64,000 nucleotides of DNA from Escherichia coli (GTDB lineage: Bacteria > Pseudomonadota > Gammaproteobacteria > Enterobacterales > Enterobacteriaceae), in NCBI RefSeq assembly GCF_003334335.1, contig NZ_QOWQ01000001.1. One strand, written 5' to 3'. Below, one piece after another: positions 60,001 to 61,651 of the stretch. Made by a program: the position numbers. Position 1 is the first letter of the stretch. Every line of letters starts with the position of its first letter.

Positions 60001-61651
60001 TTCGCCGTCGCCAGACCATCGAAGAATTACTGGCGCTGGAATTGCTTTAACTGCGGTTAGTCGCTGGTTGCATGATGACTTGCCTCCAGCGACGGAGTTG
60101 ACACTGAATGACGACGTACCAGCGTCGGACTAAAGACATTAGTGATTTCCAGGAGAGGGCGATTATCCGCCAGCGCCAAAGCCAGTTCGGCAGCCTGGGT
60201 CGCCATCGTCACGATTGGGTAACGCACGGTGGTCAGGCGCGGACGCACATAGCGTGACACCAGCACATCATCAAAGCCAATTAACGAAATCTCACCCGGT
60301 ACATCAATACCATTATCATTGAGAACGCCCATCGCACCCGCCGCCATTGAATCGTTATAACAGGCTACCGCAGTGAAATTTCTTCCTCGTCCCAAAAGCT
60401 CGGTCATTGCCTGTTCGCCGCCGCTTTCGTCTGGTTCGCCAAATGTCACCAGCCGGTCATTGGCCGCAATACCACTTTCAGCAAGGGCATCGTAATACCC
60501 TTGCAGACGATCTTCGGCGTCAGAAATAGAGTGGTTAGAGCACAGATAACCAATGCGGGTATGACCTTGCTGAATTAAATGACGCGTTGCCAGCCAGGCA
60601 CCGTAACGATCGTCCAGAGCAATACAACGGTTTTCAAAGCCAGGCAGGATACGGTTGATCAGCACCATACCGGGCATTTGTTTCATTAATGAGGCTAAAT
60701 CAGCATCCGGGATCATTTTGGCATGGACGACCAACGCAGCACAGCGATGGCGGATCAGTTGCTCAATGGCCTGACGCTCTTTTTGTTCGTTGTGGTAACC
60801 GTTGCCAATCAATAAAAAATTACCGGTGTGATAAGCCACCTGTTCGACCGCTTTCACCATTGCACCGAAAAACGGATCGGAAACATCACCAACGACCAGA
60901 CCGACCGTTTCAGTGGTCTGCTGCGCCAGCGCACGGGCGTTGGCGTTCGGGTGATAGCTAAGAGACTCCATTGCACTATGCACAGCCAGCCGGGAAGCTT
61001 CGCTGGCTTTGGGTGAATTATTAATGACGCGGGAAACGGTGGCGACTGAAACGCCTGCCAGTCGGGCTACATCCTTTATGGTCGCCATGAAAATACCTTA
61101 GTGGGTAAACGCTTACATTCTTTCAGTGTTACGGAAAACGCCCGTTGGTTCAAGGGGTGGCGTGTTTTCATCGTGGGAATGTGAGCCAAACGCAAATAAG
61201 TAAGACAAAAAAAGAGATTGCAAACCTTTGGTTACACTTTGCGAAACGCTGTTGCGATTGACCGCTGGTGGCGTTTGGCTTCAGGTTGCTAAAGTGGTGA
61301 TCCCAGAGGTATTGATAGGTGAAGTCAACTTCGGGTTGAGCACATGAATTACACCAGCCTGCGCAGATGCGCAGGTTTTTTTTGCCGGTCATCAATCTGT
61401 AACAGTAACCGACAATTTACACACCTCGTTGCATTTCCCTTCATTCCTTTGCGTTTTCTCGCTGGCGAAGAGTCGTCGTGCAGACCACAATCAAGATCCC
61501 AGAGGTATTGATTGGTGAGATTATTCGGTACGCTCTTCGTACCCTGTCTCTTGCACCAACCTGCGCGGATGCGCAGGTTTTTTTTCGCACCTAATTTACT
61601 GTCGCTCGCGTTCTTTATCTCGTGTAATCTCCCTCCATTCGCTTTTACTGA

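What the first reader, a model, noticed from the sequence alone, without database searches (positions are those of the whole stretch)
61302..61585. Tandem paralogous sRNAs OmrB and OmrA with identical ends and divergent cores
The two RNAs share their first 21 nt and the terminator hairpin but differ in the central region, consistent with a local duplication followed by divergence. They lie between galR and aas.
Basis: partly seen in the sequence, partly recalled or inferred. Interest (0 to 1): 0.25.

Follow-up and report, generated by a model that had tools for sequence, protein, structure and literature searches.

The report
Known E. coli sRNA pair OmrB/OmrA
These are the two well-studied small regulatory RNAs OmrB and OmrA of Escherichia coli, sitting side by side between galR and aas exactly as in the reference strain K-12, so the finding is correct but ordinary.

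Summary
The observation and the interpretation both hold. Rfam RF00079 (OmrA-B) matches window 61302-61383 (82 nt, 86.1 bits) and 61498-61585 (88 nt, 96.6 bits), both on the + strand. The whole galR-aas spacer is 100% identical to K-12 MG1655. There the same two stretches are annotated omrB (b4445) and omrA (b4444). One correction: the ends are nearly identical, not identical. The 5' ends match at 20 of 21 positions (A versus T at nt 16) and the 3' ends at 32 of 35. The cores cannot be aligned, yet both fold into a hairpin closed by the same GGUG/CACC helix.

A scan of one genome per species found the family across Enterobacterales in the same galR-omr-aas position. In Enterobacteriaceae the B-type copy comes first and the A-type second, in many genera. 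This supports an old local duplication followed by divergence. Single-copy genomes have spacers about 200 bp shorter. Most carry an OmrA body behind an omrB-like promoter, as already published.

The mechanism comes from the literature. Both are OmpR-activated, Hfq-dependent RNAs whose 5' seed blocks translation of outer-membrane and other targets, including ompR itself.

Novelty: already known. Interest: very low.

The parts
60057..61088 (-). galR coding sequence, the divergent left neighbour
   Evidence: It translates to 343 aa with no internal stop. It is annotated galR in matching E. coli records.
61225..61261 (+). Conserved upstream blocks of the omrB promoter (about -77 to -41), holding GGTTACAC and GTTGCGA motifs that look like OmpR half-sites
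   Evidence: These are the blocks conserved in 43 distinct Enterobacteriaceae omrB-type upstream regions. OmpR binding was not tested here. Direct activation by OmpR-P is reported in PMC5175337.
61287..61295 (+). omrB extended -10 element TGcTAAAGT (-12T)
   Evidence: Read directly from the sequence. TG, T-12, A-11 and T-7 are at least 90% conserved. The -12T matches the sigma-70-type promoter described in review PMC12692685.
61302..61383 (+). OmrB sRNA, 82 nt. It has a single-stranded seed (61302-61316) and a GGUG/CACC helix (61318-61321 with 61352-61355). The core hairpin is 61325-61330 with 61334-61339, and the terminator 61356-61377 is followed by a U tail.
   Evidence: RF00079 at 86.1 bits. 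Identical to MG1655 omrB b4445. Fold. Six pairs show compensatory changes among 24 orthologues. Terminator scan.
61397..61465 (+). Conserved upstream blocks of the omrA promoter: CTGTAACAG (61397-61405), TTTACAC..GTTGCA (61415-61436), TCATTCC TTTGCGTTTTC (61441-61457) and CGCTGG (61460-61465)
   Evidence: Conservation in 44 distinct Enterobacteriaceae omrA-type upstream regions. A promoter cut to -60 is no longer OmpR-activated, while -114 suffices (PMC5175337).
61486..61491 (+). omrA -10 element CACAAT, with C at -12 (and at -13)
   Evidence: Read from the sequence and conserved. The -12C is the published determinant of sigma-S dependence of omrA (review PMC12692685).
61498..61585 (+). OmrA sRNA, 88 nt. 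It has a seed (61498-61512) and a GGUG/CACC helix (61514-61517 with 61554-61557). The core hairpin is 61527-61543, and the terminator 61558-61579 is followed by a U tail.
   Evidence: RF00079 at 96.6 bits. Identical to MG1655 omrA b4444. Fold. Five pairs show compensatory changes among 26 orthologues. Terminator scan.
61673..63832 (+). aas coding sequence, the right neighbour on the same strand; its ATG lies 87 nt after the last base of OmrA
   Evidence: It translates to 719 aa with no internal stop. It is annotated aas.

Best explanation
The two features are the E. coli genes omrB (61302-61383) and omrA (61498-61585). They are tandem paralogous, trans-acting, Hfq-dependent small RNAs, each with its own promoter and its own intrinsic terminator.

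Shown here:
- family membership
- identity to the annotated K-12 genes
- a shared architecture: an unpaired 5' seed, an invariant GGUG/CACC helix enclosing a variable hairpin, then a terminator with a U tail
- separate conserved promoter elements
- conservation of the pair, in the same order, across Enterobacteriaceae

Taken from the literature:
- EnvZ-OmpR activates both promoters.
- omrA additionally needs sigma-S because of its -12C, whereas omrB has a sigma-70-type -10.
- The shared 5' end pairs near the ribosome-binding site of ompT, cirA, fecA, fepA, ompR, csgD, flhD, flgM, dgcM and btuB mRNAs. This blocks translation and/or triggers decay.
- Repression of ompR closes a negative feedback loop.
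- The divergent cores and promoters give the two RNAs partly different targets and inputs.

Inferred: the pair arose by duplication of a unit of about 196 bp (promoter plus gene) before the Enterobacteriaceae radiated. Selection then kept the seed and the 3' module while the cores diverged.
For: - RF00079 gives full-length matches at 96.6 and 86.1 bits against a gathering score of 40.
- The 584-bp spacer is 100% identical to MG1655, where omrA and omrB are annotated at the same places.
- The spacer is present in 5424 of 5426 complete E. coli genomes, and 5406 carry at least 80% of it in one piece.
- Two intrinsic terminators were found. Both RNAs fold better than shuffles, with z of -2.9 and -2.7.
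- Consensus structures have an unpaired seed and compensatory changes in the core hairpins.
- The -10 elements and upstream blocks are conserved and differ between the two promoters. The promoters remain weakly homologous.
- The seed (nt 1-9) pairs with ompR mRNA at -18 to -10, with dG of -19.4 kcal/mol; 15 of 1000 shuffled seeds do as well. The predicted cirA pairing at -35 to -8 matches the published site (PMC2588501).
- In 120 loci from other Enterobacterales species the family occupies the same galR-omr-aas position. In Enterobacteriaceae the order is B-type then A-type.
- Literature: PMC2588501, PMC5175337, PMC12692685, PMC13425233.
Against: Nothing in the sequence argues against it. There are limits to what was done. 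Expression, OmpR binding, Hfq dependence and target repression were not and cannot be tested with these tools. The simple sigma-70 scan found no promoter for either gene, as expected for activator-dependent promoters with poor -35 elements. The cirA duplex energy is no better than that of shuffled seeds (z about -1), so duplex prediction alone does not prove targeting. RefSeq PGAP records for other strains do not annotate these ncRNAs.
Confidence: 0.98

Rival explanations
1. The near-identity of the two ends is maintained mainly by ongoing gene conversion or unequal recombination between the tandem copies. On this view it is not due only to purifying selection after one ancient duplication.
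For: - In Mangrovibacter both copies are B-like, and in Hafnia and Rouxiella the two copies closely resemble each other.
- Enterobacter sp. Bisph1 has C at nt 16 in both copies, while Pluralibacter gergoviae and Phytobacter have A in both.
- Of 15 single-copy Enterobacteriaceae spacers, 8 measure 399-426 bp and 3 more 478-505 bp, against 587-694 bp for two-copy ones. Most of these single copies join an omrB-like promoter to an OmrA body. That is what recombination within the shared 5' end would produce. It is also stated in PMC13425233.
Against: The seed is equally invariant in lineages with a single copy, where conversion cannot act. In E. coli, Citrobacter and Enterobacter the A and B copies keep lineage-specific differences at nt 16 and in the terminator. 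For example, Enterobacter OmrB has CCTGCGTTnnACGCAGG against CCTGCGCGGATGCGCAGG in OmrA. So conversion there is at most rare. Mutational evidence shows the seed is functionally required (PMC2588501).
Confidence: 0.15
2. The two RNAs come from one primary transcript that starts at the omrB promoter and is processed, rather than from two independent genes.
For: Both lie on the same strand only 114 nt apart. The consensus promoter scan found no promoter for omrA.
Against: A strong intrinsic terminator with 9 pairs and a run of 8 T ends OmrB. The omrA upstream region has its own conserved -10 and upstream blocks, different from those of omrB. In vitro transcription from each isolated promoter, and distinct regulation by sigma-S and RstA, are published (PMC5175337, PMC12692685, PMC13425233).
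Confidence: 0.01
3. The repeats are chance or structural repeats (terminators or REP-like elements) with no RNA gene function.
For: None beyond the presence of two similar terminator hairpins.
Against: The Rfam E-values are 6e-18 and 2e-15. A 15-nt seed is invariant across five families of Enterobacterales. Compensatory changes occur in the hairpins. galR is transcribed away from them, so they terminate nothing upstream.
Confidence: 0.005

Closest known systems
OmrA (RygA, b4444) and OmrB (RygB, b4445) of E. coli K-12; Rfam RF00079 OmrA-B
   Same: Everything matches: 100% sequence identity over the whole galR-aas spacer, with the same lengths, order, flanking genes, promoter elements and terminators.
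   Different: Nothing in the locus differs. Elsewhere the window is not strictly K-12, since it carries ETT2 genes where K-12 has IS2H.
Single 'OmrAB' or chimeric Omr genes of other Enterobacterales (for example Yersinia, Pectobacterium and some Enterobacter species)
   Same: The 5' seed, the GGUG/CACC helix, the terminator and the position next to aas are the same.
   Different: There is only one copy. In Enterobacteriaceae it is usually an OmrA body behind an omrB-like promoter in a spacer about 200 bp shorter (PMC13425233).
Other sibling sRNA sets, such as the tandem PrrF1/PrrF2 of Pseudomonas aeruginosa, Qrr1-5 of Vibrio and AbcR1/AbcR2 (from my own knowledge, not tested here)
   Same: They are duplicated Hfq-dependent sRNAs with a shared seed, overlapping regulons and diverged promoters that integrate different signals.
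   Different: Their sequences, regulators and targets are unrelated, so the analogy is one of organisation only.

Membership tests
Rfam RF00079 OmrA-B | Covariance-model score at or above the curated gathering threshold (40 bits), with a full-length match | tested here: met
   The scores are 96.6 and 86.1 bits, covering model positions 1-87 of 87.
Rfam RF00079 OmrA-B | Conserved, unpaired 5' seed CCCAGAGGUAUUGAU | tested here: met
   The seed is exact in both copies. It is unpaired in the consensus folds. It is exact in all of the 177 copies listed in other species except one (L041 copy 2). One copy per locus was required to match by the search pattern.
Rfam RF00079 OmrA-B | Rho-independent terminator with a U tail at the 3' end (the Hfq-binding module) | tested here: met
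   Both copies have 9-pair stems followed by 8 T, and the folds agree. Hfq binding itself was not tested.
OmrA/OmrB of Enterobacteriaceae | [quoted passage not shown] | tested here: met
OmrA/OmrB of Enterobacteriaceae | Transcription activated by EnvZ-OmpR | not testable with these tools
   Conserved upstream blocks with TTACA/TTGCA-type motifs are present. Direct activation is published for this exact sequence (PMC5175337).
OmrA/OmrB of Enterobacteriaceae | omrA promoter with -12C (sigma-S dependent) and omrB promoter with -12T | tested here: met
   The elements are CACAAT at 61486-61491 and TAAAGT at 61290-61295. The functional meaning comes from PMC12692685.
OmrA/OmrB of Enterobacteriaceae | Seed complementarity to the translation-initiation regions of known targets | tested here: met
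   For ompR the duplex is -19.4 kcal/mol and only 15 of 1000 shuffled seeds do as well. For cirA the predicted site matches the published one, but its energy is not better than shuffles. Repression itself was not testable.

The most novel reading that the evidence does not exclude
The near-identical ends of the tandem copies may act as recombination substrates. On this reading they repeatedly collapse the pair into one chimeric gene (omrB promoter plus OmrA body) or homogenise the two copies, as in Mangrovibacter, Hafnia and Rouxiella. The E. coli pair would then be one state of a recurrently rearranging locus rather than a static ancient duplicate. The chimera observation is already published (PMC13425233), so only the conversion aspect would be new.
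Probability: 0.35. Interest if true: 0.15.

Novelty: already known. Interest (0 to 1): 0.05.

Why it matters
It matters only as a correct annotation. OmrA and OmrB are a textbook example of sibling sRNAs. They link the EnvZ-OmpR envelope-stress system to outer-membrane proteins, iron uptake, motility and biofilm control. Nothing in this window departs from the reference locus.

Tried and rejected
- The consensus sigma-70 promoter scan found no promoter for either sRNA. I located the -10 elements by position relative to the known +1 and by conservation instead.
- RefSeq records of the best-matching strains do not annotate the sRNAs, so I used MG1655.
- My first tblastn for flanking genes used galR and aas translated one base out of frame. 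I repeated it with correct frames, and only the latter is used.
- I assumed the window was colinear with K-12, but the tRNA position disagreed. BLAST showed an 8.2-kb segment where K-12 has IS2H.
- The duplex prediction for cirA is not better than that of shuffled seeds, so I do not count it as independent evidence.
- I looked for a third copy in the window and found none.
- The global-identity promoter typing has a high background of about 0.55-0.62. Borderline calls, such as Siccibacter and Silvania, are only hints.

Full report
**Observation**

Reading the region and scanning the whole window against Rfam gives two full-length matches to RF00079 (OmrA-B). One lies at 61302-61383 (86.1 bits, E = 2e-15) and the other at 61498-61585 (96.6 bits, E = 6e-18). 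Both are on the + strand, and the coordinates are exactly those of the finding. The only other Rfam hit in the window is a tRNA at 31756-31826.

The seed CCCAGAGGTATTGAT and the terminator motif each occur exactly twice in 64 kb, on the + strand only. An exact 18-mer repeat is expected about 0.03 times by chance.

The two copies compare as follows (alignment):
- They share an exact 15-nt prefix and match at 20 of the first 21 nt. Position 16 is A in the first copy and T in the second.
- They match at 32 of the last 35 nt, with an exact suffix of 18 nt.
- The cores of 26 and 32 nt do not align.

So 'identical ends' should read 'nearly identical ends', which is the wording of the literature (PMC2588501).

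**Identity**

The 584-bp spacer between galR and aas is 100% identical to the reverse complement of MG1655 2976015-2976598. In MG1655 the 82-nt copy is annotated omrB (b4445) and the 88-nt copy omrA (b4444). They sit between aas (b2836) and galR (b2837).

The spacer is found in 5424 of 5426 complete E. coli genomes. In 5406 of them at least 80% of it is in one piece, and 5304 are at least 99% identical. PGAP-annotated strains do not list the ncRNAs, which is an annotation habit rather than evidence of absence.

**Anatomy**

Each copy ends in an intrinsic terminator with 9 pairs followed by 8 T. Each folds better than shuffled sequence, with z of -2.9 and -2.7.

I made consensus folds of 26 distinct OmrA-type and 24 distinct OmrB-type sequences from other species. 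Both show the same plan:
- nt 1-16 are unpaired.
- An invariant GGUG/CACC helix encloses a variable hairpin.
- The terminator follows.

Five pairs in the OmrA set and six in the OmrB set show changes on both sides that keep the pair. The 'divergent cores' are therefore different sequences with the same structural role.

**Promoters**

The base-by-base reading relative to +1 gives two different -10 elements:
- omrB has TGcTAAAGT at 61287-61295, an extended -10 with T at -12.
- omrA has CACAAT at 61486-61491, with C at -12.

This matches the published basis for sigma-S dependence of omrA but not of omrB (review PMC12692685).

Alignments of 43 and 44 distinct upstream regions show conserved blocks that differ between the two promoters:
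- omrB: 61225-61243 and 61248-61261.
- omrA: 61397-61405, 61415-61436, 61441-61457 and 61460-65.

This agrees with PMC13425233. Both promoters contain TTACA/TTGCA-type motifs around -80 to -50. That is where OmpR sites would be expected. A promoter cut at -60 loses OmpR activation, while -114 suffices (PMC5175337). I did not test OmpR binding.

The two E. coli promoters still align better than chance, with z about 4 and 1 of 2000 shuffles as good. The duplicated unit of about 196 bp therefore included the promoter.

**Mechanism**

Established by the literature, not by me:
- OmpR-P directly activates both promoters (PMC5175337).
- The conserved 5' end pairs near the ribosome-binding sites of ompT, cirA and ompR. 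A seed mutation abolishes control of all targets tested (PMC2588501).
- Repression of ompR-envZ gives negative feedback (PMC2588501, PMC5175337).
- Further targets, the Hfq dependence, and the sigma-S and RstA-specific inputs are reviewed in PMC12692685 and PMC13425233.

As a consistency check I paired nt 1-25 of each RNA with K-12 leaders. For ompR, nt 1-9 pair with -18 to -10, with dG of -19.4 and -19.1 kcal/mol. Only 15 and 14 of 1000 shuffled seeds do as well. For cirA the predicted pairing at -35 to -8 coincides with the published site, but its energy is not better than shuffles.

**Evolution**

All are Enterobacterales, from five families:
- Enterobacteriaceae
- Erwiniaceae
- Pectobacteriaceae
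- Yersiniaceae
- Hafniaceae

Where the flanks were present in the locus, aas (61-97% protein identity) lies downstream and galR upstream. A sample of eight loci all pass Rfam.

In Enterobacteriaceae with a complete spacer, 33 species have two copies about 190-203 bp apart, in spacers of 587-694 bp (one is 1407 bp). Fifteen have one copy; 8 of their spacers measure 399-426 bp and 3 more 478-505 bp. In two-copy genomes, copy 1 is OmrB-like and copy 2 OmrA-like in both core and promoter, across many genera. The duplication therefore predates these genera.

Single-copy genomes occur inside otherwise two-copy genera such as Enterobacter, Lelliottia, Buttiauxella, Pluralibacter and Cedecea. Most of them join an omrB-like promoter to an OmrA-like body. 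This reproduces the published statement (PMC13425233) and fits deletion by recombination within the shared 5' end.

In Mangrovibacter, Hafnia and Rouxiella the two copies resemble each other. That suggests gene conversion or separate duplications.

**Comparison and verdict**

This is OmrB and OmrA themselves, not a relative. All the sequence-level defining features were tested and met. The regulatory features rest on published experiments done with this exact sequence. Novelty is 'already known' and interest is very low.

Noticed in passing
window 33122-41325: This 8.2-kb segment is absent from K-12 MG1655, which has IS2H (2996361-2997691) at that point. The rest of the window is 99.95-99.99% identical to K-12. 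The segment carries ETT2 type III secretion apparatus genes (EprH, SctT, EscU, YscQ and EscJ-family annotations). It is 100% identical in several non-K-12 strains, and 3002 of 5426 genomes hold at least 80% of it.
   Followed up: partly
L002 (NZ_CP025903.1) 3347-4655; corresponds to window 61432-61435: In one E. coli strain an IS3-family element of about 1.3 kb is inserted between omrB and omrA. A CATT target duplication marks the site, about 63 nt upstream of the omrA start. The insertion separates the conserved -83 to -62 block from the core promoter and may uncouple omrA from OmpR.
   Followed up: partly
L014 2747-4879 (Pantoea stewartii); also L027, L041, L059, L063, L072, L087, L115: In Pantoea and Erwinia the two Omr copies are not adjacent but 2.03-2.10 kb apart. 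In L014 they flank an FtsI-like penicillin-binding protein gene (2936-4675; NF011685 at 687 bits, below the cutoff of 737). A BisC-family reductase gene lies between galR and the first copy. The second copy has a longer core and a CCCACGC/GCGTGGG terminator, and both copies pass Rfam.
   Followed up: partly
L043, L086, L120 (Mangrovibacter); L053 (Hafnia); L065, L125 (Rouxiella): The two tandem copies within each genome are much more alike than E. coli OmrA and OmrB are. In Mangrovibacter both are OmrB-like. This suggests gene conversion or independent duplication.
   Followed up: no
L032 (Siccibacter), L075 and L097 (Silvania): The single copies here score as an OmrA-like body with an omrA-like promoter (0.69-0.72 against 0.59-0.60 for omrB-like). 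If real, this would be an exception to the published statement that the omrB promoter is always the one retained (PMC13425233). The scoring background is high, so this is only a hint.
   Followed up: no
Terminator loops in the listing, e.g. L049, L060, L107 (Cedecea) and L116 (Buttiauxella) against window 61365-61368 and 61567-61570: In E. coli and Citrobacter the terminator loop is CAGA in OmrB and CGGA in OmrA. In Cedecea and Buttiauxella the assignment is reversed. Across families the stem shows compensatory changes: CCTGCGC/GCGCAGG, CCTACGC/GCGTAGG and CCCACGC/GCGTGGG.
   Followed up: no
L101 (NZ_SZPQ01000016.1): This record is titled Martelella alba, a genus name I know as alphaproteobacterial. 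Yet it carries a typical enterobacterial galR-omr-aas locus with a Serratia-like Omr copy. The assembly may be misnamed or contaminated.
   Followed up: no
L035 (Pantoea MAG): Its galR-aas interval is 4818 bp, the same as in two-copy Pantoea L014 (4809 bp), but only one seed match was found within 2 mismatches. The second copy may have a diverged seed or be lost.
   Followed up: no
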